A stretch of 64,000 nucleotides of DNA from Macrostomum lignano. Lineage: Eukaryota. This document shows positions 15,591 to 55,281 of the stretch, in pieces. The translations under genes were made by a program, and so were the position numbers. Every line of letters begins with the position of its first letter. The stretch's first letter is position 1. The notes beneath the pieces were generated by a model. The model did no database searches, was not told where the DNA came from, and saw only the letters and a list, made by a program, of their open reading frames with translations. Location: contig NIVC01000551.1 of the NCBI GenBank assembly GCA_002269645.1, positions 310,001-374,000 of the forward strand. Reading direction: 5' to 3'.

Positions 15591-15725
15591 CTGTGAAAAG
15601 TCTAGACTTCCATGAAAAGACCGTCTAGGGACTGAAAGGGACAAAAAAGAGCTACTTGAAAGATTAATATAAATATTAATGATGTAATAATTTTTAGATA
15701 ACAAAACAACTTGTAAGTAAAACGA

Positions 15726-35118: not shown

Positions 35119-35124
35119 ACAAAT

Positions 35125-35142
35125 TGGCGCCCGAACAGGGAC
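35125..35142 (+). promoter_or_regulatory. Primer-binding site complementary to tRNA-Lys(UUU)
   Basis: TGGCGCCCGAACAGGGAC, the same 18-mer as the lentiviral tRNA-Lys3 PBS, 6 nt after the LTR. Confidence 0.9.
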
Positions 35143-35366: not shown

Positions 35367-36287
35367 ATGGGTGATCAAGCTATGGACCAACTGATCGATG
35401 CGCTGGCTGCGCGCCTCAGAGCCAACGCCGACCGAGCAGCGCCACGACTCTCGAAGCCGCCCAAGTACATACCAACGATGAATTTCAGCCTATGGCTGCA
35501 GAGTTTCAACGAGTACTGCGAGGCTGTCGGTATAGAAGAAGAAGCCAGGCGGCCGCACCTGATCGGCCTACTCGACCTCACAACAGCCTACGCTGCCGTT
35601 GATAAGCTGGACTTGGCAGACGACATCGAGTACGGGGAATTCACGGATGCACTACTGGCGCGGTTCACCATGAACAGAACAGCCCAGGACTACCGTTTTG
35701 AATTATCGAATCGAGATCAGCTAGACAAGGAGTCTGTGGAGACCTACGGGGACGAGCTGCTGGAGTTGGTGCGCAATGCCTTCCCCACCGCGGATGCCGA
35801 CACCAGGACAGAGCTGGCGAAAGACAGATTTCTAAAAGGCGTTCGAGTAACCGACACTGTCCGAGAAAGACTGTACCTGCAGCAGCCGGCCAACCTCACC
35901 GATGCCATTCGAACAGTAAGAAAACTTGAAGCAGCCCAGAAGGCGTCTTCGACCCAGTCCAAAGCCAGACCCAGGGCTGGGCTGAATGCCTTTGCCACCG
36001 AAACGTCGACAGGTGACGCCGGCAAAGACGAGGAGCTACGCCAACTGCGTCAAAAAGTAAAGGAAATGGAAGAAAAGATCCTACGGATGGAGCAGATGCA
36101 GCAGGGCCAGCAGGAGCCGCCCGAACCCGGCCTTCAAGACAAGCAACAATCCAAGCAGGCGGCTCCGTCCAGCTCGAAGCAGCGTAGCGGTGTCAAGTGC
36201 TACAACTGCGGGGAGATAGGCCATCTCTCATTCCAGTGCCCAAAGCCGGGAAAAGGCAAGAGGGGCCCACCAGCTGGAGGCAAGTGA
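35367..36287 (+). CDS. gag: Element A Gag
   Basis: Capsid-like helical region, coiled coil, CCHC knuckle CYNCGEIGHLSFQC. Confidence 0.9.
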   Translation: MGDQAMDQLIDALAARLRANADRAAPRLSKPPKYIPTMNFSLWLQSFNEYCEAVGIEEEARRPHLIGLLDLTTAYAAVDKLDLADDIEYGEFTDALLARFTMNRTAQDYRFELSNRDQLDKESVETYGDELLELVRNAFPTADADTRTELAKDRFLKGVRVTDTVRERLYLQQPANLTDAIRTVRKLEAAQKASSTQSKARPRAGLNAFATETSTGDAGKDEELRQLRQKVKEMEEKILRMEQMQQGQQEPPEPGLQDKQQSKQAAPSSSKQRSGVKCYNCGEIGHLSFQCPKPGKGKRGPPAGGK

Positions 36288-36417
36288 GCCCCTGCAATTC
36301 GTCAGCCTCCGAACAAGCCGTCATCTCATCTCATCATCATCAAACGCCCGGTACCGCATCTCATCAGCATCCAGTGTCCGGTACTGCGGCTCATCAGCAT
36401 CCAGTGTCCGGTACTGC

Positions 36418-37453
36418 TGATGTGTTCCTTATTACCCGACTTCGGTAATCAAAGAACAATCACTTCTAGCTCTTTAGCTAGGCAACCCAGTAATTCAAAC
36501 GAAAGTATTCAATTACCTTGACTTCTTATGAGATATCTCTCCTTTTAGTCCTTCGTAGATCTCGTGTAGATCTCGATCTGTAGTTCAGGCCTGAATTCGA
36601 CTCGACTTGTAGTCCTGGTCCGAGTTTCTCTTTCTTCTTTTGCCGGCCGGTATCTGTCGTTCGGACCAATAAGAAGCTTCCAAATTAACAATGGGTACCC
36701 TGCGCCAAACTGCGGTTTAATATAAGCCTACTCCTTCTAGCAGTGCCTCTATGCACTCTAGGTATAGCTCCGGAAACCACTGATAGTCTTCTAAGATCTA
36801 TCAGGGGCAGTCCTTCTGGAGACTGCAACCAGTAGAGTCTAAACAGACTCAGGAGTCTCAACAGACTCAAACTAAACTCCAACGAGACGTCTCAAAACAC
36901 AGGCGCAAATGAGTAAGGCTTACCGCAAGAACTCGACGAGTCTTCAGTAGGAAGTCCTGTAGTGGCTTCCTCTTCGGAGCTCTTCTCCTTCCGGAGGAAT
37001 TGTGGCTCCGGGTCCGTTCCGGACCACTTGTATTTATAGGCGTTCAGACCTCTCTCGAGGTCGTACATCACTGTCTTCGCAAATGTCAAAGGGTCACGAT
37101 TCGGTGGCTGTCAAGCATGACAGGGTAGAAAGTTGCGCAACTAGTCTACTGTAAAAGCGCATGATTGGTTACCGTAGCTGGTAGACTTTGATTGGTTCAT
37201 CCGGGTGCAACCCGAGTGCAAACAAAATGATGACTTGAAGGTGGGGTTTGAATTGACAGTTGTTGGTCGCACGTGATTGGGTGATTTCTAAAATTAGCAT
37301 GCTCGAGGTCTCTCTCTTCCTATTGGTTAGTCCGAATATACTTATAGTTCAAAGCATACCTTTATTCATGCTCTTCAATTTACTACTAAATAAAATGTGT
37401 GAGTAGTACATTAACACTTTTATGTCTTCTTACGGGAGGTAGAACACTCTACA
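36418..37453 (-). repeat. Element B 3' LTR
   Basis: Direct repeat of 46012-47047; TATAAATA on the minus strand at 37031-37038. Confidence 0.95.
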
Positions 37454-37674
37454 AAATCTCCCATGTTTACAAAAAACTCGTCCCGAGTTTTAAATTATAG
37501 AGGATTGAAACGCATAAAAAGTGCAAGCATGTCTTTATAATAATCATTTGTCACAAGTGTTACAGGTATTTAGTAATGGGTAGTTAAGAGCGTTGGTTAT
37601 AAAAGTTATTTAAAGGTAAGTATACGCATGCAAATAAAATGTTTTTGGTTACAGTATTGACATGTGCGCCAAGA

Positions 37675-37887
37675 CTAACAATAGGCGCACTGCCGCAAAC
37701 TACTTCTACCTATCGGGCAATTCTGCCAGAGCTGAATATAATGTGAGTCGCTTAAATATTGTCCGCATATGCGATGTCTGTTTTCACAAATAATTGGTGG
37801 CTTGACAGCCAAGTCATCAGTTAAACATATTGGGCATTCGTAGAGTTGCTGTAGTTGGGGCGCCTGTTTGGACAGTGCGTTGCCCAT
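37675..37887 (-). CDS. Small accessory ORF of element B: N-myristoylation motif plus variant RING finger (70 aa)
   Basis: MGNALS (MGxxxS), strong Kozak context acaATGG; CPIC-x12-CxNxHxxCxxY...CPIGR...CAYC. Confidence 0.6.
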   Translation of the reverse strand: MGNALSKQAPQLQQLYECPICLTDDLAVKPPIICENRHRICGQYLSDSHYIQLWQNCPIGRSSLRQCAYC

Positions 37888-37998
37888 TGTCGTCGTCGCT
37901 TGAAGTTTGAAGTCGCTCAGATTAGTCGCCTCTTACGACAAGCTTGCGAAGCTGTAGAGCTATTCTGACCCGGTCTCTACACGGGTTGTTTTCGCAAC

Positions 37999-40900
37999 TT
38001 AACGAGGTCGCAGATTGTAGCCGTGTTGCTGTTTCTCGGTTGATGTTTGTGTCTCCTCGTGTTTTGTTGCGATGTGGCGGTTCGCCGAACGCGTGCGATC
38101 AGCGTTGTCTAGTGACGGTAAAAACGTTGTCGTGTCAGTGTTGATCTTCTTTAGTCGATGAATGTGCACGTAGAATTGGTGCTGATGAGGATCTTGCACA
38201 TTGGCCAGGCGTGCCGTTGTCGGTGACGTTAGTTGGACCACTCGATATGGTCCTTTGTACTTCTGTGCGTGTTTGTGCGTCTGTTGCGGCGGATAGTGCA
38301 GGTAGACGATGTCGCCGGCTGTCAGAGTTGTCGATCTCGTGTCGGTGCCGGTGGTTAGAGCCACCTGATTGTCGATGTTGTGCTTGGCTACTTTCCATGC
38401 GAGGTGTAGTTGCGTGACGAACTTTTGAATGGACGTCGGGACTTCCACATATTGCGATGGTAGTAGTTGCTGCGCCAATAGGTTTGGCGGCTGGAAGTCT
38501 CGCCCAAACATTAGAAAGAATGGCGTATTGTCCGTTGATCGATGAATAGCGCTGTTGTAGGCCATTGTTACTGCTTGCAGATAGATGATCCAGTCGTCCG
38601 GTTGTTGATGCGCGAAGTGTGTAATCATCTCGTGTAGGTTGCGGTGAAACCTTTCAACCATGTTCGCCTTCGGATTGTAGGTCGATGTGTAGATCTGCGT
38701 GATGTTGAGGATCTTCACCACTTGCTGAAAGAGTTGAGACGTAAACTGCGATCCATTGTCCGATGTGAGGTTCTTTGGCGTACCGTACTTGCAGATGATG
38801 TCGTTGAAGAAACCCATTGCCACTGTCTGAGCTGTGATGTCCGGTATTGGTATGGCAATAGCAAACTTTGAGAAAATGTCCAAGGCTGTTAGGATGTAGG
38901 TGTAGGCTATGCCATGGAGACAGCTCGGTGGCAGCGGTCCGGTGATGTCGATGCTGAGACAGTCCATAGTTGTTGACTTTGGTATCGATTGTAGCTGTGG
39001 TTTTTGTCGTCGTCCTGTCTTCGATGCTGCGCATGAGTGGCAGTTGTTGCAATACTGCTTGATGTCGCCATGCATGCTTGGCCAAAAGTAGTATTGCTCC
39101 ACTCTTGCAATGGTTTTGGCTGCCGACAGGTGTCCAGCGAGTGGGTTGTCGTGCAGCTCGTTGAGAATTGCCTGCCTAAACGAATATGGCATGTAGATTT
39201 TAGGTTTGTTGTCACTCATCCAGTAGAGTCGTGACTTGTTGATTGTTAAATGTTGTCGCTGCTTGCGCAGGAATTTTCGTTCCACGGGGCTGAGCTTGAC
39301 GTCCTTGTCGTTGTTTTTAACTGCTATGTAGAAGTTGTCGTGTTCAGTCTCATCCACCAATTCCTTGATGTTAGGGATTGGATGAATGGCGTTGACTTCG
39401 TAGGCTCTTGACAGGGCGTCCGCGGCCTTGTTAGTAATTCCTGGTTTGTAGACGAGCTTGTAGTTGTAGTCCTGGATCTTGAGTGTCATCCTGATGAGTC
39501 GGTTGTTTGTTTGTCCTTTTGTAGTTACGACGTAGGTCAGCGGTGCATGATCTGTGCGTACTATCGTCTGTAATGGAGATCCATAGATGTAGTAGTGAAA
39601 CTGTCGTAGGGCGAACAGAACTCCTAGTAGTTCTCGTTCCGTAGCTGACCATTTTGTCTCATTCGGTTTAAGTGCTCGACTGACGTAGGCTATAGGTCGT
39701 TCCTTTTTGTCTTCAGTTTCCTGTAGTAGGACTGCTCCGAGTCCCGTTCCTGAGGCGTCTGTCTCGATGATGAAGGGTTTGTCGAAGTCCGGATGCTGTA
39801 GCAGTGCGTCTGATGTCAGCTGTCGTTTGATTTCGTCAAAACTTTCTTGTTGCTTTTGTGTCCAATTCTCCTGCTTCCATTTGTCGAACTTGAGCAGGTC
39901 GTACAGCGGCTTTGCTGTCTTCGCGAAGTTGGGTAAGAACTTTCGGAAGTATTGCGCAAGTCCAAGAAATGATTGGACCTTCGTTTTGCTAGTTGGCGTA
40001 GGAAACTTTTTCACTTTATCCACGTTGTCTGGGTCCGGTGAAATTCCTTTGGCTGTCACCTGATGTCCCAGGTAACGCACGTTGTCTTGGAAGAATTTGC
40101 ATTTAGTTGGTTGTAGCTTCAGACCTTGACGTTGTATAAGCGCGAGGGCCTTCTCCGTCGCTTCATAGAGTCGTTCGAAGTCTTCTCCGTAGGCCAAGAT
40201 GTCGTCAACATAGTGCAACAGGTTCGTGCATCCTGCAAGCATGTATGCTGTTAGTCGGCTCATCGTTGCTGGGCTGTTGCTGAGTCCCATCGGCGATCGA
40301 TTGTACTCGTATACTTGTCCATTGTAGGTTTTGAAAGCCGTGTACTGTCGTGACTCTTTCTCGATTTCAATTTGCCAAAATCCATGACGTAGATCGAACA
40401 CTGTGAACAATTTTGCCGTGTTGAGCTTTGCTAGTAGTTCGGAGATCTTCGGTAGGCTTTGCTGATCCGTCGGTATGTACTTGTTCAGTAGTCTGAAGTC
40501 ACATACGAGTCGTCTTTCGTTAGTCTCCTTCTTTTGCACCAAGAGACATGGTGATGAGTATGCTGAAATGGCTTTGCTGATGATGCCGTGTTTCAGCATT
40601 TTGTCGATAATCTCATCGAAGTGCTGTTGCAGATGCTTGGCGATCGGGTACGGTTTGCACTGAATTGGTTCCGTGTGCGGCAGAAGTTTGATTTCCTGTT
40701 TGATGTCCTTGGCTCGTCCGATGTCGTAGTCATGGTGGCAGAAAGCGTCGTTGTACTTCCACAACAGCTGTCGAACTTTCCTCTTTTGCTGTTCCGTAAT
40801 CGGGCTGTCATCCAAATTGATCTTCTTTTGAAATTCTTCCTCTGTTAGTCGTGGAGTCGCTTGCTCAATCAGCATAACCGATGCTTGGGTGTTGAGATGA

Positions 40901-41508
40901 CCGATGCACATTCCTTGTCGTAGATGAACCGTTTCTGTGTTCGGGTTGAATATTTGTACTGGCAGCTGTTTATCTTTTGCAACCAGTACTAGTGCCGTAG
41001 GCATCATAATTTGGTGTTTAGCCGTGACTCTTCTGTTTGGGTCGAATATCATTGCTTCCTCCGTTGCGTTAGTTGCCTTTGCCTTTATCCAGCAGGCGCT
41101 CTCCGGTTGGATGATGACATCTTGTTGCAATGTTACTTTTGGTAGTACTCGGATCTGGTTGATCAATGGTTGTTCTACCGAGTCGATCTTAAACGTTTGC
41201 TTATTGAAGTCGAAGGTCAATGGTAGTCGAAGCTGCTTGAACGTGTCGATGCCAACAATAACGTCCTGGTTTGGGAGTCTGTCGATGACGTACGTTGGAA
41301 CTGTCAAGTGTTTATTAGCGATTCTTAAATCAATGTCGGCTTTTCCCAGAATGTTTAGCGAATGTCCTCCTGCTCCTGCAACTGCGATTGTTGCTGGCCG
41401 TAGAGCAAGTCGTAGCTTGTTGCACAGTTGTTTTGATATAACTGTGATGGAGCTGCCGGAGTCGAGTAGCGCTCGACATGGTAGATTGTTGATTACCACT
41501 TGAGCCAT
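37999..41508 (-). CDS. pol: Element B Pol (PR-RT-RNase H-IN), intact 1169 aa with its own ATG
   Basis: LLDSGS; YVDD; IETDASGTG; H-x6-H...CHSC; IDITGP / SDNGSQF / VERFH; KGPYRV. Confidence 0.96.
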   Translation of the reverse strand: MAQVVINNLPCRALLDSGSSITVISKQLCNKLRLALRPATIAVAGAGGHSLNILGKADIDLRIANKHLTVPTYVIDRLPNQDVIVGIDTFKQLRLPLTFDFNKQTFKIDSVEQPLINQIRVLPKVTLQQDVIIQPESACWIKAKATNATEEAMIFDPNRRVTAKHQIMMPTALVLVAKDKQLPVQIFNPNTETVHLRQGMCIGHLNTQASVMLIEQATPRLTEEEFQKKINLDDSPITEQQKRKVRQLLWKYNDAFCHHDYDIGRAKDIKQEIKLLPHTEPIQCKPYPIAKHLQQHFDEIIDKMLKHGIISKAISAYSSPCLLVQKKETNERRLVCDFRLLNKYIPTDQQSLPKISELLAKLNTAKLFTVFDLRHGFWQIEIEKESRQYTAFKTYNGQVYEYNRSPMGLSNSPATMSRLTAYMLAGCTNLLHYVDDILAYGEDFERLYEATEKALALIQRQGLKLQPTKCKFFQDNVRYLGHQVTAKGISPDPDNVDKVKKFPTPTSKTKVQSFLGLAQYFRKFLPNFAKTAKPLYDLLKFDKWKQENWTQKQQESFDEIKRQLTSDALLQHPDFDKPFIIETDASGTGLGAVLLQETEDKKERPIAYVSRALKPNETKWSATERELLGVLFALRQFHYYIYGSPLQTIVRTDHAPLTYVVTTKGQTNNRLIRMTLKIQDYNYKLVYKPGITNKAADALSRAYEVNAIHPIPNIKELVDETEHDNFYIAVKNNDKDVKLSPVERKFLRKQRQHLTINKSRLYWMSDNKPKIYMPYSFRQAILNELHDNPLAGHLSAAKTIARVEQYYFWPSMHGDIKQYCNNCHSCAASKTGRRQKPQLQSIPKSTTMDCLSIDITGPLPPSCLHGIAYTYILTALDIFSKFAIAIPIPDITAQTVAMGFFNDIICKYGTPKNLTSDNGSQFTSQLFQQVVKILNITQIYTSTYNPKANMVERFHRNLHEMITHFAHQQPDDWIIYLQAVTMAYNSAIHRSTDNTPFFLMFGRDFQPPNLLAQQLLPSQYVEVPTSIQKFVTQLHLAWKVAKHNIDNQVALTTGTDTRSTTLTAGDIVYLHYPPQQTHKHAQKYKGPYRVVQLTSPTTARLANVQDPHQHQFYVHIHRLKKINTDTTTFLPSLDNADRTRSANRHIATKHEETQTSTEKQQHGYNLRPR

Positions 41509-41728
41509 GGCTTTGCCAATTTCGGCGTGTAGAGTACATACGTAGTTCTCTGGCCATTTTGGGTCTTGCTGTTCTGCTTGATAGTTGGGTGGTTGTATTC
41601 TTGGTGCCGTTGGTGTTGTCGGAATCGATGGATATAGCCGCGTTGCTAGTGTCGGTTGCCCTTGAACTCACGATGTGCAGTTTCTGTTAGTTCTAAACTG
41701 TTGTCGCCTTCCGTTGTCGTTCTTTGCA

Positions 41729-43114
41729 TTATGGCATTAACTGTCTTCTTAGCTTTGGACAAGTTTGACTGAAGCACCGTACGATTGACGAAATGATGAA
41801 GATTGCCGTGACAATCCACACAATGCAAGCACCGTAGAAGATGAATCCTTGATAGAGACTGCCTCTTCCATTGAGCAGCTCCCAGAAGCTGTTTGTCCAA
41901 AATGATTTGATGGCGCTGTCCATTGAAACAAGGACGGGAAATCTTCCTGTCCCGGTTCCTTTGTCCTTTCTTGTGAACAGCTGGTGAATCATCTTGCGTT
42001 GGGTGATGAACGCTTGCAAGAAGTCGTTGATCGTCCATCCTGGTGTTATCTCGTCAAGTTGGATATCGGCGAATGGCGTATACTTCGTTCTGTTGAATCG
42101 GATTTTCAAATCCTCCATGTCGTAGTTTTCGTCGACGATTACTTCCGGTTCTGTGATGTTTGCTGTCGTTCCAGTTGTTTTGATGACGTGCAGTGCATTG
42201 TCCAGTTGATAGTAGTTTGCTGCCGTGGTGCAGGGTCTCGGTATTGCGGTGCCAACTATGATGTTGTGTACCGTGTCCAAGAATCCCTGAATTCGTTTTC
42301 CTTCGTAGAACGCTTCAATCCTTGGCTTGTCGTAGCAGGTTGTTGACGTGTTCGACGGCAAGATGTTAAAGTGCTGTATCGGCGTGCACTTGTATATCAA
42401 CAGATGCTCGTATATTGGAACTGCCAAAACGTTCGTCATTCCGGTGATTTTACGAAAAGTCATCGTAGGGTTGACATAGTAGTTTTGTCTGGCATAATTT
42501 AAGTTGATTGCGTGCATTTTGCAAGTTAGCTGGACCAGTGTTCGATGCAAGTGGTTTAACTGGTTGTGTAGATTGTGATCCAAAGCCGTTATCTTTGCTG
42601 ACAGTAGTCGGTTTGACACCAGTTTGGGACGTTCGATGTCACGTCGTCGTCTGTTCTGTTGTTCCTGCTGTTGATACGTTCCGTTGATGATCGCCAGAAA
42701 GGTTTGTTTGTCGTCATCTTTTACGTAGACTGGTATCTCTTGTTCCGAGATGAATAGTGTCTTGTCTGTATCCTTGCATTTCAGTTTTTGCTCGACTGGT
42801 TTCTTTTGAAACGTCAGTGCCAAGTCTCCTGACTTTGCCAAAAACGTGTTTGACAGTAGACCTCCTTCAACTGTGTGATACTTTTGAAGCTTGCAGTCAA
42901 TTTCCGGCTCAACTTCCCACGCGAAGAAGTATTGTCGTGACTTAGATGGTTCTTCATATCGTGAGTCGCCTCTGCGTATAATTTGCCATCGATAGTCTTG
43001 ATGATATGTTGGACTCAACGGTAAGCTGTATAGTTCCTCATTCCGCAGTATCGGCGTTGGACACCATCCTTTGCTGTATCGGCAGTCACTTAATTGCAGT
43101 TGTAGCGACTCCAT
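41729..43114 (-). CDS. env: Element B envelope glycoprotein, C-terminal part (herpesvirus gB-like class III fusogen, TM-anchored)
   Basis: Furin site NRRRRD; helical LHNQLNHLHRTLVQLTC; NPTMTFRKITG...LLIYKC; CYDKPRIEAFYEG..QGFL...PC; N-glycosylation sequons; TM FIFYGACIVWIVTAIFIISSIV. Joined to the upstream ORF by a 1-nt frameshift in an A5 run (~43114-43118). Confidence 0.75.
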   Translation of the reverse strand: MESLQLQLSDCRYSKGWCPTPILRNEELYSLPLSPTYHQDYRWQIIRRGDSRYEEPSKSRQYFFAWEVEPEIDCKLQKYHTVEGGLLSNTFLAKSGDLALTFQKKPVEQKLKCKDTDKTLFISEQEIPVYVKDDDKQTFLAIINGTYQQQEQQNRRRRDIERPKLVSNRLLSAKITALDHNLHNQLNHLHRTLVQLTCKMHAINLNYARQNYYVNPTMTFRKITGMTNVLAVPIYEHLLIYKCTPIQHFNILPSNTSTTCYDKPRIEAFYEGKRIQGFLDTVHNIIVGTAIPRPCTTAANYYQLDNALHVIKTTGTTANITEPEVIVDENYDMEDLKIRFNRTKYTPFADIQLDEITPGWTINDFLQAFITQRKMIHQLFTRKDKGTGTGRFPVLVSMDSAIKSFWTNSFWELLNGRGSLYQGFIFYGACIVWIVTAIFIISSIVRCFSQTCPKLRRQLMP

Positions 43115-45315
43115 TTTTCAAAAGGATTGTGGTAGAATGGAATATTCCTGATTAGGTAACTGTTTCGTGTCATGTAGTTAGTCCATGCTTCCGAAAAGTG
43201 TACATATCGTCCGTTTGCTGAGTTCTTCGTTCGGTAAAGTTGTGCCTCCCCCACTTTCTCATCCGGTTCTAGCTGACCATCCTTTGAGAACAGTGTTTGG
43301 TTCCATTGTAGACATTCAGCGTGCGACACATGTAGTTCGTGTTGCCAAAATCGAATTCTGTTCCACTGTCCTCGCCAAACTTTTTCTACTAGGTGCTTGT
43401 CTCTAAAGCACACTATTCCGAGTTGTCGATGCTTCTTGATGTTAGCTTTGTAGAGATCAATTGTTATCTTCTTTGGCTTCGTCTGGTTTGTCTTGAAGTA
43501 GCTGCATTTGATGTCGGTTGGTATCTTGTAGATCATCGGTTGGATATGCGCATCCGTTGGACATATCATTGGTTTCTCCATTGCTGTTGCTTTGGTGACT
43601 ACTGCCGTCAGTAGTATTATGATGATCCAGAATATCCAGAATCGCCATTTTCTGAACGTTGCCGTTGTCTTTGCTGGCATTGGCTGCGGCTGCCATTCGT
43701 TATCTTCTGCGTCCGCATCGTATTCTTCCTCTTGTTCCATTGGCGTTTCCGAGCGCAAGGCATCCGATTCGTTCCGCTGCTTGTCGTCTTCATCATTTTC
43801 TTCCTTGCTTTCTTCCGATGTTGTAGTTGTGTCACTCCATTGTCTGCGGTACCTCACTTCGGCCTTGTAGTCGACCGTTTGAATGTAGGCTTCACCATTT
43901 CGTTTATATCGGATCTCGTAGCATTGATCGCTGTCGGAGCTTAGATTTCTTTCTTCCATTCCTTTGTGCCTTCCGTCTTCATGTTCTTTGTCGGCGGCTC
44001 GGTTGTCATCAGCGTCATTCTGCATCTCATAATCGTGATCGCTGCTTTCTTCTTGCTGTTCTTCTTCCATTTCTGCATTTCCGTCGTTGCTTCTTTCGTT
44101 GTCATCCTTCGTTGCCAGTTCCTTGTCGTTGCCTTTGTTTGTTTCTTCTTTTCTTTCACTGATGTCGCTTGACAATGTTTTTTCTGTGCTCACTTCTGTC
44201 TTTTCTTCTTCGCTGTCAATGTTAGTTTCTTTCATTTCGACCATGCTGATGTTTTTTGTCTTTTCGCTGCTCTCCACATCGAGCCAGTCGATTTCATTGA
44301 TAGTGAAGTCCATTTCCAAGTCGTCTATCGTGAAGACTTGCTGCTCTTGCTGTTCGCTTTCCGGTGTGTACGTGATGGCGTTTGCATATCGTTGCATCGC
44401 TTGCGTTGGTTGCTTGGGCATGTATCTGGTGTTTCGCGGTCTGTAGCCATTGTTTCCGAAGCGTTTCGTGTTTTGCTGCTGCCAATTTTGATGTTGTTGC
44501 CATGGTTTTTGCGGCTTCCTTCTGTTGAATGGCTGTCGCTGCATGTCATTTCTTGTTGACCGATGAGGACAATGTATTTGGTAGTGTCCTTCTCGTCCAC
44601 AGTAATAGCATCTGGCTTGGGCTCGTTCATTTCGTCTTTTTTGTTCGGCGATAACGGCTGTTTGATGTTGCATCAATTTGTTTAGTTGCTGTGTCAGTTT
44701 CTGCACTTCTGTGTTGCCGGTTGTCATTAGTGGAGCGCTTGCTTCCCACTGCATTCCGCACCGTAAAAGGTCTTCCTCGGTTTCAATGTTTTCGCGTAGA
44801 AGTCTATCTCGGAGTGACGGCTGTGCATTGTTTATTACGTGCAGAATCAGATTTTGTTCGCGATCCATCAATCGCTGTCGCTCTCTAGCGGCTAATTCTG
44901 CCGCACCCAGAGGTGGTTGGTCTGCAGCTGGCAGTGTTGGCTGATGCAGTGCCTTAATTATCTGACGGATGTCGTCCACAAAGGTCAGGAAGGATTCGGT
45001 TGGCTGCATCCTTCTGTTATGCAACTTGTGCAGTAGCACTGATCTGTTTGTGCCACAGCGGTTGAAATGCGCGCGCAGTTGAATGATTAATGCTGGGTAG
45101 TTTTGCTGTGTTGCCGCATCTAGTTTACCATAAATCTCTCGTGCAGTGCCTTGGAGGAGTGGTGGCAACAGTTGCGCTTTTTCTGGATTTTGTAGGTTGT
45201 ATTCCCTACATACCAGGTCAAAATGATCAACAAAGGTGTTAAAGTCTTTTTCCATAGAAAAGGTGCCAACTGTCTCTTTGATATCTCTGTGCACCGTTGG
45301 ATTGCGCCGCGCCAT
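43090..45315 (-). CDS. gag: Element B Gag fused in frame to an acidic linker, internal signal sequence and Env N-terminus
   Basis: Capsid-like FVDHFDLVC..., CCHC CYYCGREGHYQIHC, ~250-aa D/E-rich linker, FWIFWIIIILLTAVVTKATA, then a Cys-containing ectodomain. Confidence 0.85.
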   Translation of the reverse strand: MARRNPTVHRDIKETVGTFSMEKDFNTFVDHFDLVCREYNLQNPEKAQLLPPLLQGTAREIYGKLDAATQQNYPALIIQLRAHFNRCGTNRSVLLHKLHNRRMQPTESFLTFVDDIRQIIKALHQPTLPAADQPPLGAAELAARERQRLMDREQNLILHVINNAQPSLRDRLLRENIETEEDLLRCGMQWEASAPLMTTGNTEVQKLTQQLNKLMQHQTAVIAEQKRRNERAQARCYYCGREGHYQIHCPHRSTRNDMQRQPFNRRKPQKPWQQHQNWQQQNTKRFGNNGYRPRNTRYMPKQPTQAMQRYANAITYTPESEQQEQQVFTIDDLEMDFTINEIDWLDVESSEKTKNISMVEMKETNIDSEEEKTEVSTEKTLSSDISERKEETNKGNDKELATKDDNERSNDGNAEMEEEQQEESSDHDYEMQNDADDNRAADKEHEDGRHKGMEERNLSSDSDQCYEIRYKRNGEAYIQTVDYKAEVRYRRQWSDTTTTSEESKEENDEDDKQRNESDALRSETPMEQEEEYDADAEDNEWQPQPMPAKTTATFRKWRFWIFWIIIILLTAVVTKATAMEKPMICPTDAHIQPMIYKIPTDIKCSYFKTNQTKPKKITIDLYKANIKKHRQLGIVCFRDKHLVEKVWRGQWNRIRFWQHELHVSHAECLQWNQTLFSKDGQLEPDEKVGEAQLYRTKNSANGRYVHFSEAWTNYMTRNSYLIRNIPFYHNPFEKWSRYNCN

Positions 45316-45989
45316 GTTGTTGATGGGATAGAACGGTAGCTCTAGGTCTGGGTCGATTTGTAATGGATCTTCCAGTGTGGTGTTTCTTTCGAAATAAACT
45401 TCGGTTGTAACTGATTGTCTTGCGGTGCTTTTGACACCTCAATTTGTTATGTCTGACCTTGAGCGGAATTCGGCTTTTGGCTGCTTTTTCTGACCTCTTA
45501 TTCGCTGGCTGATTTTCGCACTTATGCGGCGTCCCGCAAAGTGTATCTTTAAAGTGCTTGAAGTGCAGCTGCTTCTTGCTTTTTTCAAAGGCCTTTCTTG
45601 TCTTCGTGACGTGCCTTGTCACGTTTTATCAAATTTCGGTTTGTTTTAGCTTTCGTCAAGTGTTTTTAATTTCGGTTTTGTTTTAGTGTGTATTGATTAT
45701 TTTTCGGTTTGTTTTCAGTGTACCGGACGTTGTTTTCGGTTTTGTTTAAGGTTTACTCTTGCTCGAGCTCGTTAAAAACAAAAATTTAACACGCGTGCTC
45801 AAACGTTACTCAAAATTGACAGGTACTCAAGCCTGTATATCTAAACTTTTACTCGAGTTTCAAATCGTACAAAAATCGAAAAGTGTCGAAAAGTGTTACC
45901 TCTAACACGTGCGCGCAAAATTAATGAAGTCGCTCTTTCGTCACTTTACAATAGCTTGGCCAGGCTATTGCTCAAAAGTTTGAGTAGTG

Positions 45990-46009
45990 CCGAGAGGGCG
46001 AGATCACCA
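45990..46009 (-). promoter_or_regulatory. Putative PBS of element B (tRNA species unassigned)
   Basis: TGGTGATCTCGCCCTCTCGG begins 2 nt after the 5' LTR, consistent with a tRNA 3' end ...CGAGAUC-A-CCA. Confidence 0.6.
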
Positions 46010-46011
46010 AT

Positions 46012-47047
46012 TGATGTGTTCCTTATTACCCGACTTCGGTAATCAAAGAACAATCACTTCTAGCTCTTTAGCTAGGCAACCCAGTAATTCAAACGAAAGT
46101 ATTCAATTACCTTGACTTCTTATGAGATATCTCTCCTTTTAGTCCTTCGTAGATCTCGTGTAGATCTCGATCTGTAGTTCAGGCCTGAATTCGACTCGAC
46201 TTGTAGTCCTGGTCCGAGTTTCTCTTTCTTCTTTTGCCGGCCGGTATCTGTCGTTCGGACCAATAAGAAGCTTCCAAATTAACAATGGGTACCCTGCGCC
46301 AAACTGCGGTTTAATATAAGCCTACTCCTTCTAGCAGTGCCTCTATGCACTCTAGGTATAGCTCCGGAAACCACTGATAGTCTTCTAAGATCTATCAGGG
46401 GCAGTCCTTCTGGAGACTGCAACCAGTAGAGTCTAAACAGACTCAGGAGTCTCAACAGACTCAAACTAAACTCCAACGAGACGTCTCAAAACACAGGCGC
46501 AAATGAGTAAGGCTTACCGCAAGAACTCGACGAGTCTTCAGTAGGAAGTCCTGTAGTGGCTTCCTCTTCGGAGCTCTTCTCCTTCCGGAGGAATTGTGGC
46601 TCCGGGTCCGTTCCGGACCACTTGTATTTATAGGCGTTCAGACCTCTCTCGAGGTCGTACATCACTGTCTTCGCAAATGTCAAAGGGTCACGATTCGGTG
46701 GCTGTCAAGCATGACAGGGTAGAAAGTTGCGCAACTAGTCTACTGTAAAAGCGCATGATTGGTTACCGTAGCTGGTAGACTTTGATTGGTTCATCCGGGT
46801 GCAACCCGAGTGCAAACAAAATGATGACTTGAAGGTGGGGTTTGAATTGACAGTTGTTGGTCGCACGTGATTGGGTGATTTCTAAAATTAGCATGCTCGA
46901 GGTCTCTCTCTTCCTATTGGTTAGTCCGAATATACTTATAGTTCAAAGCATACCTTTATTCATGCTCTTCAATTTACTACTAAATAAAATGTGTGAGTAG
47001 TACATTAACACTTTTATGTCTTCTTACGGGAGGTAGAACACTCTACA
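46012..47047 (-). repeat. Element B 5' LTR
   Basis: Apparently identical to 36418-37453. Confidence 0.95.
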
Positions 47048-47800: not shown

Positions 47801-50800
47801 CACCTCACCATCAACTAGCCGGTTTTGCACAGTCGCAGCGCCCAATCACCGTCAACGCACCTCAGTCAATTCAAATCAATCCTGCGTCGATATATGTTAC
47901 GGCCTCAATCGCAGGGCGGAGGGTGAACGCGCTAGTGGACTCGGGAGCTTCCTGCACCATTATCTCACGGGAAGCTTACCAAAGTATGCCGAAACAGAGC
48001 GTCAGAGATTTGGCCGGTGCTGAAGGCTACGTTAGCTTAGCAAACGGCAGCCCGATCGAAATCGAGAGGACAGTCCTGTTGCGACTGTCAATCGCTGATA
48101 AAGTAATAGATACTCCAGCCTTGGTAGTCAGCGGAGTGAAGTACCAACTGGTATTGGGATCCGACTTCTGCAGGGACAACAGTTGCGTCATCGACTACAA
48201 GACAGCTGTCTTTTCAGTGCAGGACACTGCAATCCCGTTCCGATGGCAAGCTGAGCGCCCGATCGTTTGCAGAATTTTGGCGACAAGGTCCAGCACAATA
48301 CCGCCAGGTCATCAAGCAGTTCTGTCAGCAAGGCTGGAGAGCAAAGGACGACGGAACAGAGGGTGTGTCGGTCTAACTGAGAATCTCGGAGCGAACGATT
48401 TGGCAGCTGGCCGCTGGCTTGCTAAGGCCTTAGTGATCCCAAATAGCGGCAGCCGTCTGCCGACTCGACTCATCAATATCACGGAAGAGCCAGTCAGAAT
48501 TCGCCAAGGTTGTACGCTCGGGTGGTTCTGCCCCCTAGAATCCACCGAACCGTTGAACACCATCAAGCTCTTAGCCGTAGAGTCAGGAGACGATCCACAG
48601 GAAGAGCCGAAGGTCCAAGGCAGCAACAGCCCTTCGGAAGCAGACTTGCTACCAAACTCGTATGGCGACTGTGGACTGTCGACGAAAGAAGACGAATAAT
48701 TTAGAATCCTTGTCCGGAGTTACAGCGATGTGTTCACGACCAAGCAGACTTCAAGCAAGTTAACTACCGTGGTGGAGCATGAAATTAACACCGAGAATGC
48801 GCGCCCAATCAAAATCCCACCGCGTCGTCTGCCTCCCCACTTACAGCCAGAATTAGATCGTCAAGTCAACGAGTTGCTGGAAAAGGGGCAGATCGAAGAA
48901 GCACAGTCGCCATGGTGCTTTCCTTTGGTGTGCGTAAAGAAGAAATCAGGGGAAATGAGGATGTGCGTCGATTATCGGAAGTTGAATGAGGTCACCGTCA
49001 AGGACGCAGTGCCGATGCCGAGGGTCGATGATGCGCTGGAGGCAGTACACGGCGCCAAGATCTTCTCGACAATGGACCTTCACAGCGGGTTTTGGCAAGT
49101 AGGGGTGAGACCTCAGGATCAGGACAAGACGGCGTTTGCAGTGCCGCATCGCGGACAATTTCGATGGAAGGTTATGCCGTTCGGCTTAGTGAACAGCCCA
49201 GCAACATTCACCAGGTTGATGGCAGCCGTTCTGGACAAGCAGATGTGGAAAACCTGTCTCGTCTACATCGACGATCTACTGGTTTGGTCAACCGACGTGG
49301 ATGAACACCTGAGAAGACTGGAGGAAATATTCAGCAAGTTGCGGCAAGCAAATTTGTGCCTGAAGCCCCAGAAGTGTCACTTTTTGCAAAAGCAAGTGAA
49401 ATTTCTCGGTCACACGCTGTCGGCTGCTGGCATCAGTACCGATGAGGAGAAAGTTCAAGAAGTGAAGAACTGGCCAACACCGCGATCCTCGACGGAGCTG
49501 CATTCATTCTTGGGCCTGTGTGGCTATTACAGAAAGTTTATTAAAGATTTCGCCGCAATAGCAGCGCCTCTAACTCGATTGACAACAAAAGACGCAAAGT
49601 TTGAATGGAAAACGGAACAGCAGCTGGCGTTCGAAAAATTGAAGGAACGAATGACAAGTTCAGAGGTTATGGCTCATCCGGATTTCTCCCCGGATGCCGG
49701 AGAGTTTATCCTCGATACTGATGGCAGTTCGAAGATGGGCATAGGAGCGGTACTTTCTCAAGTCCAGCCAGATGGAGCAGAACGAGTGATCGCCTATGGG
49801 TCCAAGACACTAAATCAAGCCGAACGCAACTATTGTACGACTCGTTTAGAACTACTAGCGGTTGTGACTTTCATCATGAAGTTCAGATACTATCTGCTGG
49901 GAAAAGCGTTCTGTCTGCGAACGGACCACAGCAGCCTGCAATGGTTAAAAAACTTCAGTGACGCCGAGGGACAGGTTGCTCGCTGGTTGGAGAAGTTGGC
50001 TCCATTTCAGTACCGCATCGTTCACAGACTAGGTCGATCGCATGGCAACGCGGACGCAATGTCGAGGAAGCCAGTACGGAGACATTTCGGAGCGGAGACA
50101 TGCCCGGCATGTGCGCAGCATCCAGAAGGACTAAATGCAGTCGAATTTGAACGATTCTCAGCCGGCAATCTGGCAAGCGAGCAGGATCAAGATGACGATT
50201 TGAGAACAGTAAAGGAAGCGCTTGGCTCAAACCCAGTTCCAGATAAAAGCGAGACAGCTTGGAGTCCACTGGCTAGAGCCGTCTGGACTCGAAAAGACGA
50301 CCTGGTGCTGCAAGAGAACGTGCTCCTTGTGAGAAACAAAGACAGGCGCGATGAGTATCAAATGGTGCTGCCACGAAAGGCATTGGATCGTATCTTGAAA
50401 ACCCTACACGAGGGAGTGGGAGGTGGCCACATGGGCTTTGCGAAGACAAAATTTAAAGTGCTTCAGCGCTACTGGCGTCCAGGATTGTCTCGTGCCATTG
50501 AAGAATATATTCGCGGTTGTGCCACCTGCTGCAAGTCAAAGCCGGGCAAGCGAAACCGAGCACCCCTGCAACCGTTGACATTCGCAGCACCATTCGATTG
50601 CGTCATGATGGACATTGTCGGGCCGCTACCGCGGAGTAAGGCTGGAAACATTTATCTCCTGACAGTCCAAGATTCGTTTACGAAGTGGCCTGACGCGTAC
50701 CCGCTTCGCAACCAGAAGGCAAGGACGGTGGCAAGGGCGCTTTTCAATCGATGGATTAGCCAGCATGGATGTCCGAGTACTTTGCACAGTGACCAAGGAA

Positions 50801-51708
50801 GGAACTTCGAATCGCAAGTGATGCGCGAAATGTGCAGGATACTCGAGATCCGCAAGTCCAGAACCACAGCTTATCATCCGAGCGGAAATGGACAAGTAGA
50901 AAACTTCAATAAAAGTTTAAAATCCATCCTCAAGTGCTGCCTAGAGGACTCAGGACGAAACGACTGGGAAGAATTCGTCAGCTCTGCGTTAATGGCGTAC
51001 CGATCAAGCGTGCATCGAGCAACGGGTTATACTCCCCACTACATGGTCTATGGCACGGAGATGCGCCTACCGATAGACTTGACTGACCAGCCGCCACAGC
51101 CTGTCGATTCGCATGTAAATTTCGTCAAGGAGCTAGAAGACAAATTGCAGACAGCTCATCGCGCTGCTCGACAGCAGTTGAATACTTATCAGCGGCGACA
51201 GAAGGACCAGTACGATAAAAGAACCCGAGGATCCGATATTCAGGAGGGTGACCATGTCTTCGTCTACAGCCCCGCCCTGAAACCAGACGAAGCCGCAAAG
51301 TTTCACGTAAGCTGGCTCGGCCCAGTGAAGGTGCTCGAAAGAAGATCCGAGGTGCTCTTCAAAGTGGAAAACCCGTCAAATCGTAAAAAGTCGAAGTTCG
51401 TCCACTTCAACAACCTCCGGAAGTTCGCTCGACCGGCCGCCCTGGAAACACCAGTTAGGACCGCGGCACCGCCGGAGGTGGTCGACGAGACGGACTCGGA
51501 GACAGAGGCGGAATGCGAGACTTGGACTCGGCCTCAACTGATGCCGCCACAGGACGCCGAGGAAGTCGCCGAGGTGCTGGAAGAGCAGATGGAGTTGGTT
51601 GACGACCCGCAGCCTACTCATAACCCGGTGGAAGCTGCACCTGAGCCTCGAAGGTCCGGAAGGTTGCGACGGCCGCCGGATCGCTACGGCCAGCCAGTGA
51701 CATTCTAA
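47048..51708 (+). pseudogene. pol: Element A Pol (PR-RT-RH-IN), interrupted by element B and by an in-frame TAA at 48697-48699
   Basis: LVDSGAS; YIDD; LDTDGS; HHCC; MDIVGP / SDQGRNF / QVENFN; WLGPV; ORFs 46993-48699 and 48730-51708 share one frame. Confidence 0.93.
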
Positions 51709-52131
51709 TGGGTTACTCGTCATCGTGAAGTCTCATCAGTTTCATATGCGATTATCGTAAAAAGCCAGAAAAATATTTCGCGAATGCGTCATTCATCATA
51801 AATACGAGTACTTCATCAATGCACCATTCATCATGAGTACGAGCAGTTCGCCAATGCGTCATTCAAGAAATTCGTTAATGCGTCATTAAGTCATTTTAAT
51901 CGCATCTTCATCGAAGTTTTGACGAGAATCAAATTTTGCCTACAAAATCTATGCATCGGTGGAGGGTATTCGGACTGGCATCCGGTGACAACTCGAATTT
52001 GCGCTGGGACTTTACGATGCAGGGTACCGCGGGCCACGGTCCGAGGAGATGACGCTCTGGCAAGAGGGGAGCAGGAGTAGAATCTGGAGTCAGGGACAGT
52101 GTGTCGCAGGTTTGAGTACGTTGCTTTGCAG

Positions 52132-53641
52132 ATGGATTTGTACGCTGTCCTCCAAGTCGGACACACAGCCGAACGTGCCGAGATCAGGCGAGTCTATCGA
52201 CAGCTAGCGCTCTTCTGGCACCCGGACAAGCACCCGGACAAGGAACTCGCAGGACGCCGTTTCCAAGAAATTGAGACTGCTGGTAGAATTCTATCGTGTC
52301 CATATCGCCGACCAGTTGGGCGATAAATCAATCCCGTATGACGAGGCTGTAACCTTCGCAATGACGTTCATACCTCCTACTGGTGTAAGAATGCCGGCGG
52401 ACATCGAAGAGGGAGTACAGCAAAGGCGAGAAGTTGAAGAAGCTCAGCGCAAGGAAGCTGGTCTCAGGCAGGGGAGACAGGGACAGAGGAACGATTACGA
52501 AGCGGATGGCTACATTCTAATCTCGGACGACGATGAGAGCGAGGAGTCGGATGAATGTAGCATCGACACAGAAGAAGAAGACGAGTGGCTGGCATCGGAT
52601 GGCTCCTCCGGAAGTAGTGAGTCAGAAGCTATGGAGATCGATGTACCGGAAAGCAAGGAGGTTGTCTCACATCGCGCGTCGGGAGCAATATGGGATGATG
52701 AAAAGCTGTCGTTATCGGCAGCTGCGCGTCAGCTCCGCCATCGTTTGATGAAGCATATTTTGGCTGGACAGTCGGACGGAATCGTGTCAGTGCTCACGGC
52801 TATGAGACGGCTGTTTCGAGACTCGCAGCGAGAACCGAGGAGCGCACTGTCAATGGTCCTGCTGCAGGCGTTGTTCTTCATCCGCAGAGATATCGCTCCG
52901 GTAAAGCGTCAGAGAGCAGGCCGCCGTTACTGGTCTAGGCAGAGTTTTGATTGTTTCGTCCGACAGCTCTGTCACGAGCTCATCCCGCTGTTCGGTTTGC
53001 GCCGGCCCGGCAGGCTGCTCGAGGTCCTGAAAAGCTGCGTCGGTCTCCCTGGACTTCGGGTTCGCTGGGGTGCCCAGTTCCGATTCATACTGTATTTTCT
53101 GCTTACTTGTATGTATGTTGTTACGCTCGTACTGTATGGGTTTATTTGCATGCTAGTGGGGTCAAGCTTCCTGGGGGAATGGCTCAGCAGCTGGGCGGCG
53201 GCCACGTGCGCTTCCTGCCGGCTTCTGCGGCGGCCACCTGCGCTTCCTGCCGGCTTCTGCGGCGGCCACGTGCGCTTCCTGCCGGCTTCTGCGGCGGCCA
53301 CCTGCGCTTCCTGCCGGCTTCTGCGGCGGCCACCTGCGCTTCCTGCCGGCTTCTGCGGCGGCCACGTGCGCTTCCCGCCCGGCCATCTGCGCGCCTCGCC
53401 CGGCCGCCTTCGCATCTTGCCGGCCACCTGCGTGCCCTGCCGGCCATCTGCGCGTCCTGTCGGCAACCTGCGCTTCCTGCCCGGCCATCTGCGCGTCCTG
53501 TCGGCAACCTGCGCTTCCCGCCCGGCCATCTGCGCTTCCTGCCGGCCACCTGCGTGTCCTGTCGGCAACTTGCGCGTCCCGCCCGGCCATCTGCTCGTCC
53601 TGCCGGCCGCCTGCGATGGTTTTCTGTGCCGCCAGCTTTGA
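52132..53641 (+). CDS. Element A ORF3: J-domain (DnaJ) + acidic region + hydrophobic segment; one +1 frameshift near 52310
   Basis: MDLYAVLQV...EIRRVYRQLALFWHPDKHP...FQEIETAGRILS is a J-domain with HPD (52219-52227); acceptor ttgctttgcag directly precedes the ATG; continues in ORF 52271-53641. Confidence 0.75.
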
Positions 53642-53859: not shown

Positions 53860-53871
53860 AGGAGGGGAGGG
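53860..53871 (+). promoter_or_regulatory. Polypurine tract of element A
   Basis: aggaggggaggg immediately before the 3' LTR. Confidence 0.85.
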
Positions 53872-54736
53872 TGTAGTGCATGCGCCCTTGTCAGTTGGCA
53901 GGGCGCGTTGCACTTTGGGGCTGGTTGGGGGGGTTGGCGGGCGTGGCAGGGTTTGGCCGCCGGCCGGGCTTTGCGCGTGCCCCTCCCCAGCCGTGCCCCT
54001 GCCCCGTGCTCAGGGCTGGTTGGCTGCGGCCGGGCCAGCTTTGGCGCGGGTGCAGCCCCTCCCCCCTTAGGCGGGGTTTTGATTGGCTGGGCCGGCGTGG
54101 TTTGTTTTGGTGAGCTTAGCCGGTGGGGCCGTCTGCCCCAGGGTTTGGGTGCTATTTATGGTGCGACTCTGGCTCTTGCCCGCCACCTGCGTGCTTTTTG
54201 TGTTTTGGTGTGCTCCGAGAGTGCAAGCGCGAGACCTGATAAAAGAAACAGCAACATTAGCTACTTCGATAAAAGAAAGACAATAGCCTAATTGAGAAGA
54301 GTCTTGGAGAATTAAGAAGAAGTCGGAAACTGCGCTTGAGACCTGTGAATAATAAACGGTGAACAGTCATCTGGCCACTGGTAAGCCGCCTGCTGTTTGA
54401 GTCCTTTCTTTTCGGGAAGCTTGCTAGGCCGAATTCTTGCCAGAGCGTCATAACGCCGGGAGACCATATAGCTTCTGTAGTACGGTACCGTTTACCATAT
54501 ATTGCGTACGCCCTACGGTATAGAGAATAGAAGCACTCGAGAGTGTCACCACACCTCGAGCCGCAGCGTGAACTCTGAGTGTCACAACACCAGAGGGATC
54601 AAATTATTATCGCAGAGCGTCGCCACGCCTGCTCGTCGTATTCATAAAAGTACAGACAGAGCGTCACAACGCCTGTTATATCACATATAATATATATTGT
54701 ACTCGGGACTGGGCACCCAAGCCGACCCGGGTTACA
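53872..54736 (+). repeat. Element A 3' LTR
   Basis: Direct repeat of 34254-35118. Confidence 0.95.
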
Positions 54737-55281
54737 AGTTCAAAGTTGAGGTTAAGATCAAGGAATAGGGCCTTCTTAAGCCTAATTTAAAATTGTAAGG
54801 CCAATGCAAAACGCGACACGACACTAGCAGTAGACATGTTAAATGTTAAGATAGAGCCTGACTATTACTTCTCACTCAATTTCTGTCTGCCAAATTATGT
54901 GGAACATCTCATACCCACCCTACCGTTAAACGAACGTTCCCTCAAAAGGGGGTGATACATTTACTCCATTGGCGCATAGAAAATTTTAATTTATTTAATT
55001 AAATTATGATACTCCATCGATTATTTAGTAATGATTACGGTCCTGGGCGGCTCGCCGGGCGGTAAGTATCAATTAAGGCTGACAGGATCATTGGTAGGCA
55101 CTACATGTACATGCAAGTGATTGATTTCTATAAGATATGCTCTGAGGCCCAAGCAGCCTCCAATCAAGGCCTGAAGAAGGCCGAATCCATAAATCTCAAT
55201 GGAGGTATATTTATTAGTCATTAATCAGTTCAAGAAGCTTAACACAGTTATATGCACGCTGTAAGCTGTGATTTCTATCAA

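What the first reader, a model, noticed from the sequence alone, without database searches (positions are those of the whole stretch)
52132..53641. LTR retrotransposon carrying a J-domain (Hsp70 co-chaperone) ORF in the env position
Seen: between integrase and the PPT, element A encodes a complete J-domain (HPD motif) directly after a pyrimidine-AG acceptor, then an acidic stretch, a basic helical region and a TM-like hydrophobic segment. A single extra base near 52310 splits it; removing it gives ILSCPYRRQLGDK. Established: viral J-domains recruit Hsp70 (polyomavirus T antigens). Inference: a spliced accessory gene that co-opts Hsp70 for particle assembly/uncoating or host manipulation. I do not recall this as a standard Gypsy cargo.
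Basis: partly seen in the sequence, partly recalled or inferred. Interest (0 to 1): 0.8.

Follow-up and report, generated by a model that had tools for sequence, protein, structure and literature searches.

The report
Chaperone-recruiting gene in flatworm retrotransposons
A group of related jumping genes in a flatworm carries an extra, long-conserved gene whose protein has the docking module that cells use to call in Hsp70 chaperones, which suggests these elements borrow the host's protein-remodelling machinery, although the copy seen here is broken and the target is not known.

Summary
The J-domain is real (Pfam DnaJ 6e-17) and is not a one-off capture. It opens a third gene between integrase and the 3' LTR of a young Ty3/gypsy family: 23 of 24 copies read through it, 13 ending at 315 aa. 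The window copy is broken. Homologous genes lie at the same place in at least six further divergent families of this genome (host inferred: Macrostomum lignano). Each has a J-domain, a linker (acidic in most) and a new basic five-helix domain. dN/dS is 0.06-0.31. Diverged homologues occur in unnamed outside datasets. One family adds an HP1-type chromodomain, two a TatD-like domain, and one has lost HPD. A conserved LTR donor and an acceptor at the start codon point to splicing; in one family the joint would itself create the ATG. No splice joint was seen directly. Best reading: an Hsp70-recruiting adaptor acting on nucleoprotein complexes, probably nuclear; the client is inferred. Ten literature searches and four look-ups of this scan's earlier notes found no description of it.

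The parts
34254..35121 (+). 5' LTR of element A (TATA-like box near 34535)
   Evidence: identical to the 3' LTR over 867 aligned nt
34760..34768 (+). predicted splice donor in the LTR leader (exon would end at 34762); the only GTAAG in this LTR, 227 nt after the TATA-like box
   Evidence: same placement in 7 of 7 LTR types of HPD-carrying families; use for the J gene is inferred
35125..35142 (+). primer-binding site (tRNA-Lys type; the label is recalled, not from a call)
35367..36287 (+). gag with CCHC knuckle
36418..47047 (-). element B, an unrelated gypsy element (gag, env-like, pol) inserted into element A's tandem-repeat region, with a 4-nt target duplication; not part of the finding
47851..51708 (+). 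pol: protease, RT, RNase H, integrase; premature stop at 48697-48699 in this copy (sense codon in 14 of 14 siblings)
52110..52131 (+). predicted splice acceptor directly before the start codon
52132..52320 (+). J-domain with HPD; frame broken near 52310 in this copy by a short deletion
52321..52711 (+). conserved helical extension after the J-domain, then an acidic, predicted disordered linker (out of frame with the J-domain in this copy)
52712..53068 (+). unnamed basic five-helix C-terminal domain with a Gly/Arg-rich loop; usual end of the gene
53069..53641 (+). 3' untranslated region in most copies (the hydrophobic stretch and GC-rich tandem repeats); open here only because this copy has no stop at 53066
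53860..53871 (+). polypurine tract
53872..54737 (+). 3' LTR (last two bases of the usual end absent, so no target duplication is visible)

Best explanation
A lineage of Ty3/gypsy elements captured a J-domain once, long ago, and has kept it as a third gene. SHOWN: position, copy number, homology across families, purifying selection, no membrane segment, modular add-ons. INFERRED (about 0.75): the gene is read from a spliced RNA that joins the LTR leader to the acceptor at its start codon. INFERRED from established J-protein biology (about 0.8 for HPD families): the J-domain stimulates host Hsp70. INFERRED, weakest (about 0.5): the basic C-terminal domain, helped by a chromodomain or TatD-like domain where present, brings Hsp70 to nucleic-acid-bound complexes, most likely in the nucleus (the element's own chromatin or integration complex), which Hsp70 then loosens or takes apart. 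The copy in the window is dead.
For: Family A: 23 of 24 full-length matches read through the J-domain, 21 of 24 reach the C-domain, 13 of 24 end at 315 aa. LTR pairs are 98.5-100% identical, and 13 of 13 visible left flanks differ. The same gene follows pol in families B-F, between pol and a PPT/LTR in the copies examined, at about 30% protein identity for B-D against A and RT identity of 51-64%. dN/dS between subfamilies: J part 0.055-0.23 (7 of 11 pairs; 4 saturated), C-domain 0.066-0.31 (9 of 10; 1 saturated), chromodomain 0.23, TatD-like 0.13-0.19. The 14 element-type J-domains split from 26 cellular ones at 99/97 support, with a shared motif in 13 of 14 against 0 of 26. The C-domain folds confidently (pLDDT 88) and is basic in 11 of 11 rows. 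The highest 19-residue hydropathy is 0.94-1.56 in 10 of 10 proteins. The family C chromodomain is closest to Swi6/HP1 (E 2e-10); families F and G carry TatD-like domains. A pyrimidine-AG lies 0-17 nt before the start in 7 of 7 families, within 4 nt in 5 of 7 (background 0.013-0.095). A GTAAG lies 166-227 nt after the TATA-like box in 7 of 7 HPD-family LTR types (shuffle rate 0.03-0.08 each). The LTRs do not align between families (only two F types align with each other). In family F there is no ATG: the acceptor is followed by TG (4 of 4) and the donor is preceded by A (6 of 6 LTRs), so the joint would create an in-frame ATG.
Against: Family G keeps the gene open (about 10 full-length uninterrupted matches) but lacks HPD in 11 of 11 copies read, so Hsp70 stimulation is not needed in every family. 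Family H (2 of 2 loci) and five related loci have no detectable gene, and several are young by LTR identity, so it is dispensable for mobility. The window for the donor count was chosen after seeing the data; element B's LTR and one gene-less relative also hold a GTAAG. Splicing, protein expression, localisation and client were not demonstrated. The chromodomain and TatD-like modules occur in only 3 of 7 families, not in the window's family. One aromatic cage position is not aromatic in family C (cage positions recalled). The grouping of gene-carrying families on the RT tree was 96/95 under LG+G4 but unresolved under a mixture model with one outgroup. An earlier, smaller J tree gave only 33/88. 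dN/dS values are rough (high dS, pairs not independent).
Confidence: 0.55

Rival explanations
1. Particle chaperone: the protein brings Hsp70 to Gag or to the RT-RNA complex in the cytoplasm, for assembly, RT activation or uncoating.
For: Same anatomy. The basic loop could bind the element's RNA. Host Hsp40/Hsp70 activate hepadnavirus RT, and polyomavirus J-domains aid assembly (both recalled).
Against: The added modules are an HP1-type chromodomain and a TatD-like domain, which fit chromatin or DNA better. Related families lack the gene, so it is not a core assembly factor.
Confidence: 0.25
2. Decoy: the protein occupies or misdirects Hsp70 or its partners and so blunts chaperone-dependent defence (small-RNA effector loading) or shifts the heat-shock response.
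For: Family G keeps a J-like domain without HPD, as a decoy might. Host J-proteins with HSP70 act in transposon silencing in Arabidopsis (PMC8616336, passage). Other LTR families in M. lignano exploit the heat-shock response (PMC12801592).
Against: HPD is kept in 6 of 7 families and in 5 of 5 outside homologues whose J-domain is in view, which suits an active co-chaperone. No canonical heat-shock element in 9 of 9 LTRs scanned, 8 of them from these families.
Confidence: 0.12
3. Same protein, other route of expression: the acceptor takes the host's spliced leader by trans-splicing, which cuts the gene out of the full-length RNA like a downstream operon gene.
For: About 30% of M. lignano genes are leader trans-spliced (PMC8629364, passages). 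An AG next to the start codon fits either route.
Against: The published leader ends in ATG. Joined to family F's acceptor it would be out of frame, whereas the LTR donor gives an in-frame start. The conserved LTR donor would be left unexplained.
Confidence: 0.15
4. A neutral passenger, or a one-off host exon capture.
For: The window copy is broken, and some relatives lack the gene.
Against: Purifying selection, presence in 7 families, diverged outside homologues, and clear separation from cellular J-domains.
Confidence: 0.03

Closest known systems
Non-envelope ORF3s of Ty3/gypsy elements, e.g. GDSL esterase and DEDDy exonuclease ORF3s of bdelloid rotifers (PMC5408684, passages)
   Same: A captured cellular-type domain in the env position, family-specific gain and loss; that paper says ORF3s are typically expressed from spliced messages.
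   Different: The cargo is a co-chaperone module plus an unnamed domain, not an enzyme. Here selection is clearly purifying between subfamilies; the rotifer study saw no significant departure from neutrality within the genome.
env of Drosophila gypsy-type errantiviruses (recalled; survey PMC13524379, passages)
   Same: Position after pol; predicted subgenomic RNA from a 5' donor; a start codon made by the splice joint (recalled for gypsy env; my search for it gave no usable paper).
   Different: No membrane segment and no env Pfam match in the conserved protein.
Virus-encoded J-domain proteins: polyomavirus T antigens, phage Rki, pestivirus Jiv insertions (all recalled, no paper seen)
   Same: N-terminal J-domain with HPD on a mobile element, followed by an acidic stretch and a client-binding part.
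   Different: No LxCxE motif in 5 of 5 in-genome proteins (1 of 5 outside ones has a match), no helicase; the carrier is a retrotransposon.
Host chromatin J-proteins: Arabidopsis SILENZIO with MBD5/6 and HSP70 (PMC8616336, passage); DNAJ1/2 with SUVH1/3 (recalled)
   Same: A J-domain tied to a chromatin reader and acting on transposon chromatin; a model for family C's J plus chromodomain.
   Different: Those are host genes with a separate reader protein. Here the element encodes it, and the function is untested.
Heat-inducible LTR families of M. lignano (PMC12801592; parts 1-3 of 6 of the text, word search of the whole main text, Table S1, word search of all 5 supplements)
   Same: Same inferred host; LTR elements that touch the heat-shock system.
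   Different: Those use heat-shock elements in the LTR; none was found here. The main text has no mention of DnaJ, Hsp40, ORF or splicing.

Membership tests
Ty3/gypsy LTR retrotransposon | Paired LTRs, PBS and PPT | tested here: met
Ty3/gypsy LTR retrotransposon | Domain order protease-RT-RNase H-integrase | tested here: met
Ty3/gypsy LTR retrotransposon | Target-site duplication | tested here: inconclusive
   4 nt in 1 of 2 siblings with both ends in view; not visible in the window copy
Ty3/gypsy named clade (Gmr1/Osvaldo, Mag, CsRN1) | RT placement against reference elements | not tested
   no reference set was fetched
J-domain protein (Hsp40) | Pfam DnaJ above cut-off with HPD between helices II and III | tested here: met
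   families A-F and 4 of 5 outside proteins scanned; not met for family G (18 bits, no HPD)
J-domain protein (Hsp40) | J fold | tested here: met
   model residues 1-67 match the Ydj1 J-domain, Z 8.7, rmsd 1.3, 66 aligned
J-domain protein (Hsp40) | Stimulates Hsp70 ATPase | not testable with these tools
   needs an assay
Class A/B Hsp40 | G/F region and beta-sandwich client domain | tested here: not met
   no DnaJ_C match; the linker is acidic and the C-domain all-helical, so class C-like
Retroelement env | Transmembrane anchor and fusion ectodomain | tested here: not met
   hydropathy at most 1.56 in 10 of 10; the hydrophobic stretch lies past the usual stop
Known fold family for the C-terminal domain | Clear structural match | tested here: inconclusive
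   best Z 8.2, within the common range for helical bundles
Heat-shock-element LTR families of M. lignano | Canonical three-unit HSE in the LTR | tested here: not met
   0 of 9 LTRs, exact pattern; 1 one-mismatch site downstream of the TATA-like box in family A
Spliced subgenomic ORF3 | Joint between LTR donor and acceptor in RNA | tested here: inconclusive
   only assembled contigs were available; comparative signals

The most novel reading that the evidence does not exclude
These retrotransposons encode their own chaperone-targeting anti-silencing factor: a J-domain on an exchangeable chromatin- or DNA-reading module that sends host Hsp70 to strip repressive complexes (or the spent integration complex) from the element's DNA. 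It would be a selfish-element counterpart of polyomavirus T antigen and the mirror image of host J-protein silencers, evolving by module swapping (chromodomain, TatD-like, HPD loss).
Probability: 0.25. Interest if true: 0.88.

Novelty: new variant of a known kind. Interest (0 to 1): 0.7.

Why it matters
Extra genes after pol are known, but I found no report of a co-chaperone as such cargo. A conserved, selected J-protein shared by at least seven families says that Hsp70 is a lever for retrotransposon success. It gives a defined protein, in a genetically tractable worm if the host inference holds, for asking which step it moves. The family adds a new protein domain, a natural HPD-less variant and natural module swaps as built-in controls. 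Database gene sets list these proteins as host 'J domain-containing proteins', so chaperone counts for this species include transposon genes.

Tried and rejected
Expression: no RNA holder is listed on record among 24 runs (19 hold the stretch; 14 of these are guessed to be RNA). Contigs of 4 runs from 4 studies cover all 30 bins of a sibling copy, run unbroken across the acceptor in 4 of 4, and list no LTR-to-acceptor joint. One GT..AG joint inside the LTR, from a donor 14 nt downstream of the predicted one, appears in 1 of 4. Contigs show presence, not absence, and DNA was not excluded, so this is counted neither way.

Fold of the C-domain: no clear match in solved structures (best Z 8.2) or viral models (0 at E 0.001). 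The ESM Atlas lead to DnaJ-X scored 0.77, at chance level, and Pfam gave no DnaJ-X match at E 1; rejected.

Context of the outside homologues: the single-protein metagenome scan found nothing. The alignment scan kept the best 80 of 350 loci; 0 of 80 had pol or the C-domain, and the 19 read were ordinary DnaJ genes. Their link to retrotransposons is therefore inferred from the trees. One of the 9 profile hits (P0011, a repeat protein) was dropped as spurious. A full-length profile search was crowded out and returned 2 proteins.

A structure prediction of Gag with the C-domain was not available. Of 20 J-domain loci first fetched, 4 had pol upstream on the same strand, 2 were decayed element-type copies and 14 were host genes. 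Of 15 loci fetched by RT, 6 were truncated or decayed members of known families and were not counted for presence or absence. Rfam gave only chance matches on a family D copy. PMC8639832 is not held.

Literature: searches gave no paper describing a DnaJ gene in LTR elements (most seen as listings only). The earlier classification of M. lignano LTR elements cited by PMC12801592, Repbase and GyDB could not be seen and may mention it.

Full report
Observation. The frame from the ATG at 52132 gives 64 residues with HPD and matches Pfam DnaJ at E 6.1e-17. It follows a pyrimidine-rich AG. It sits inside a Ty3/gypsy element (element A): 5' LTR 34254-35121, PBS, gag 35367-36287, pol with protease, RT, RNase H and integrase to 51708, PPT 53860-53871 and 3' LTR 53872-54737, the LTRs identical over 867 nt. 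A second element (B, 36418-47047, minus strand) is inserted between gag and pol. This copy is dead three times over: the insertion, a stop at 48697 (sense in 14 of 14 siblings) and an 11-base deletion near 52310 relative to 23 of 23 siblings. The hydrophobic segment lies past the codon at 53066, a stop in 15 of 24 copies, and is read only in this copy's downstream frame and in 3 of 23 siblings.

The gene in its own family. A DNA search of the genome gave 39 matches, 24 of them near full length. Of these 24, 23 read through the J-domain, 21 reach the C-terminal domain and 13 end at 315 residues. Fourteen were fetched whole. LTR pairs are 98.5-100% identical over the parts in view, and the 13 visible left flanks all differ, so these are recent, separate insertions. 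Counts are lower bounds, and the assembly may hold redundant copies.

The gene in other families. A protein search gave 119 matches with repeated classes. Fetching representatives showed the same gene after pol in families B, C, D, E and F, between pol and a PPT/LTR, plus diverged subfamilies. Seventeen full-length uninterrupted matches were listed for C, 14 for D and 3 for B. B, C and D are 30-34% identical to A, and RT is 51-64% identical between families (one stop-broken F copy scored 42%). All share a J-domain, a helical extension, a linker (acidic in most; predicted disordered in A) and a basic five-helix domain with a Gly/Arg loop that has no Pfam match. Family C inserts a chromodomain closest to Swi6/HP1. 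Family F appends a TatD-like domain that lacks at least one conserved histidine. An RT search found family G, with the same gene and the TatD-like domain but no HPD in 11 of 11 copies read. It also found family H and five more distant loci with no detectable gene.

Selection and origin. dN/dS between subfamilies is 0.055-0.23 for the J part (7 of 11 pairs, 4 saturated) and 0.066-0.31 for the C-domain (9 of 10) (rough, pairs not independent). A C-domain profile against 1.84 billion cluster representatives gave 9 hits, 8 real. Two are named Macrostomum lignano records; six are unnamed Logan or JGI proteins whose best match to the in-genome proteins is 32-76%. Where whole, they end where these do. 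A named M. lignano protein matches family C almost letter for letter, which is the basis for the host inference. The outside proteins' genomic context could not be fetched. Fourteen element-type J-domains separate from 26 cellular ones at 99/97 (a smaller set gave 33/88), which favours one old capture. No host donor could be named. Gene-carrying families grouped at 96/95 on one RT-RNase H tree but were unresolved under a mixture model, so whether the gene-less relatives never had it or lost it is open.

Expression. A pyrimidine-AG lies 0-17 nt before the start in 7 of 7 families and within 4 nt in 5 of 7, against a background of 0.013-0.095. Seven of 7 LTR types from HPD families have a GTAAG 166-227 nt after the TATA-like box (shuffle rate 0.03-0.08 each; window chosen after the fact). 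G has a GTGAG at 165 and H has none there. The LTRs do not align between families. The strongest point is family F, which has no ATG: its acceptor is followed by TG (4 of 4) and its donor is preceded by A (6 of 6), so joining them gives an in-frame start. I predicted this from the acceptor before looking at the LTRs. The same device is recalled for Drosophila gypsy env. B and E donors also end in A, so the match is suggestive, not proof. The host's spliced leader (PMC8629364, passages) is the rival partner, but it would be out of frame in F. Direct RNA evidence was inconclusive (see Tried and rejected).

Mechanism. HPD and the J fold imply Hsp70 recruitment by established J-protein biology. 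J-proteins of this build use their other domain to pick the client. That domain is basic, soluble and under selection, and the modules added next to it are a histone-mark reader and a nuclease-like fold. I therefore favour a nucleic-acid-bound, probably nuclear client: the element's silenced chromatin or its integration complex. A precedent for J-protein plus reader plus HSP70 on transposon chromatin exists on the host side in Arabidopsis (PMC8616336, passage). A cytoplasmic particle role, a decoy role and trans-splicing are the rivals. Family G shows that HPD can be lost while the gene is kept; H and the distant loci show that the gene is optional.

Comparison and verdict. It works like other captured third genes (PMC5408684, passages) and like viral J-domain proteins (recalled). 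It is not env, not a class A/B Hsp40, and not one of the heat-shock-element families of PMC12801592. Ten paper searches and four look-ups of this scan's notes found no description. Repbase, GyDB and the earlier classification paper were not seen. Verdict: a real, old, selected and apparently undescribed accessory gene family; new variant of a known kind; interest 0.7.

Noticed in passing
L078:67-105 and L078:7760-7800 (family D LTRs): Both LTRs hold an exact 33-of-35-nt copy of the published M. lignano spliced-leader sequence, about 110 nt after the TATA-like box and before the predicted donor: a retrotransposon that seems to carry the leader in its own first exon. It was found in none of the other oriented loci scanned and not in the window.
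   Followed up: partly
window 36418-47047 (-): Element B: identical 1036-nt LTRs, gag, an env-like region (Pfam Monjiviricetes_fusion 1e-5, below cut-off) before pol. The gag-env-pol order is reported for flatworm elements in PMC13524379.
   Followed up: partly
L084:2313-3146 (-); L200:6339-8012 (+): TatD-like domain fused to the gene in families F and G, under purifying selection in F (0.13-0.19) but missing at least one conserved histidine; possibly a non-catalytic nucleic-acid binder.
   Followed up: partly
L199, L200, L210-L218 (family G): An abundant family whose J-like domain lacks HPD in 11 of 11 copies.
   Followed up: partly
window about 34776-34915 (L107:1509-1648): A 138-nt GT..AG joint inside the LTR in one run's contig, from a donor 14 nt past the predicted one.
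   Followed up: no
window 52103-52131: A second AG lies 22 nt upstream of the acceptor, followed by the same GTTTGAGT octamer that begins the LTR joint above; meaning unknown.
   Followed up: no
window 36330-36417 and 47048-47810; 53200-53620; LTR near 34620-34660: Three tandem arrays of variable length among siblings: one between gag and protease (in the pol frame), one in the 3' UTR and a 30-nt unit in the LTR.
   Followed up: no
L107:5076: Contigs of 3 of 4 runs leave the RT region at the same place for the same foreign sequence: probably a truncated copy elsewhere.
   Followed up: no
L081 (G000:C20): Two family E pieces lie in tandem or nested, with two J-domains 3.3 kb apart.
   Followed up: no
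window 3139-3765, 15717-17138, 23794-28091, 55282-57243: Other frames seen in the ORF lists: a fibrinogen-like exon, a non-LTR RT/RNase H fragment and host exons on the minus strand (labels by eye, not tested).
   Followed up: no
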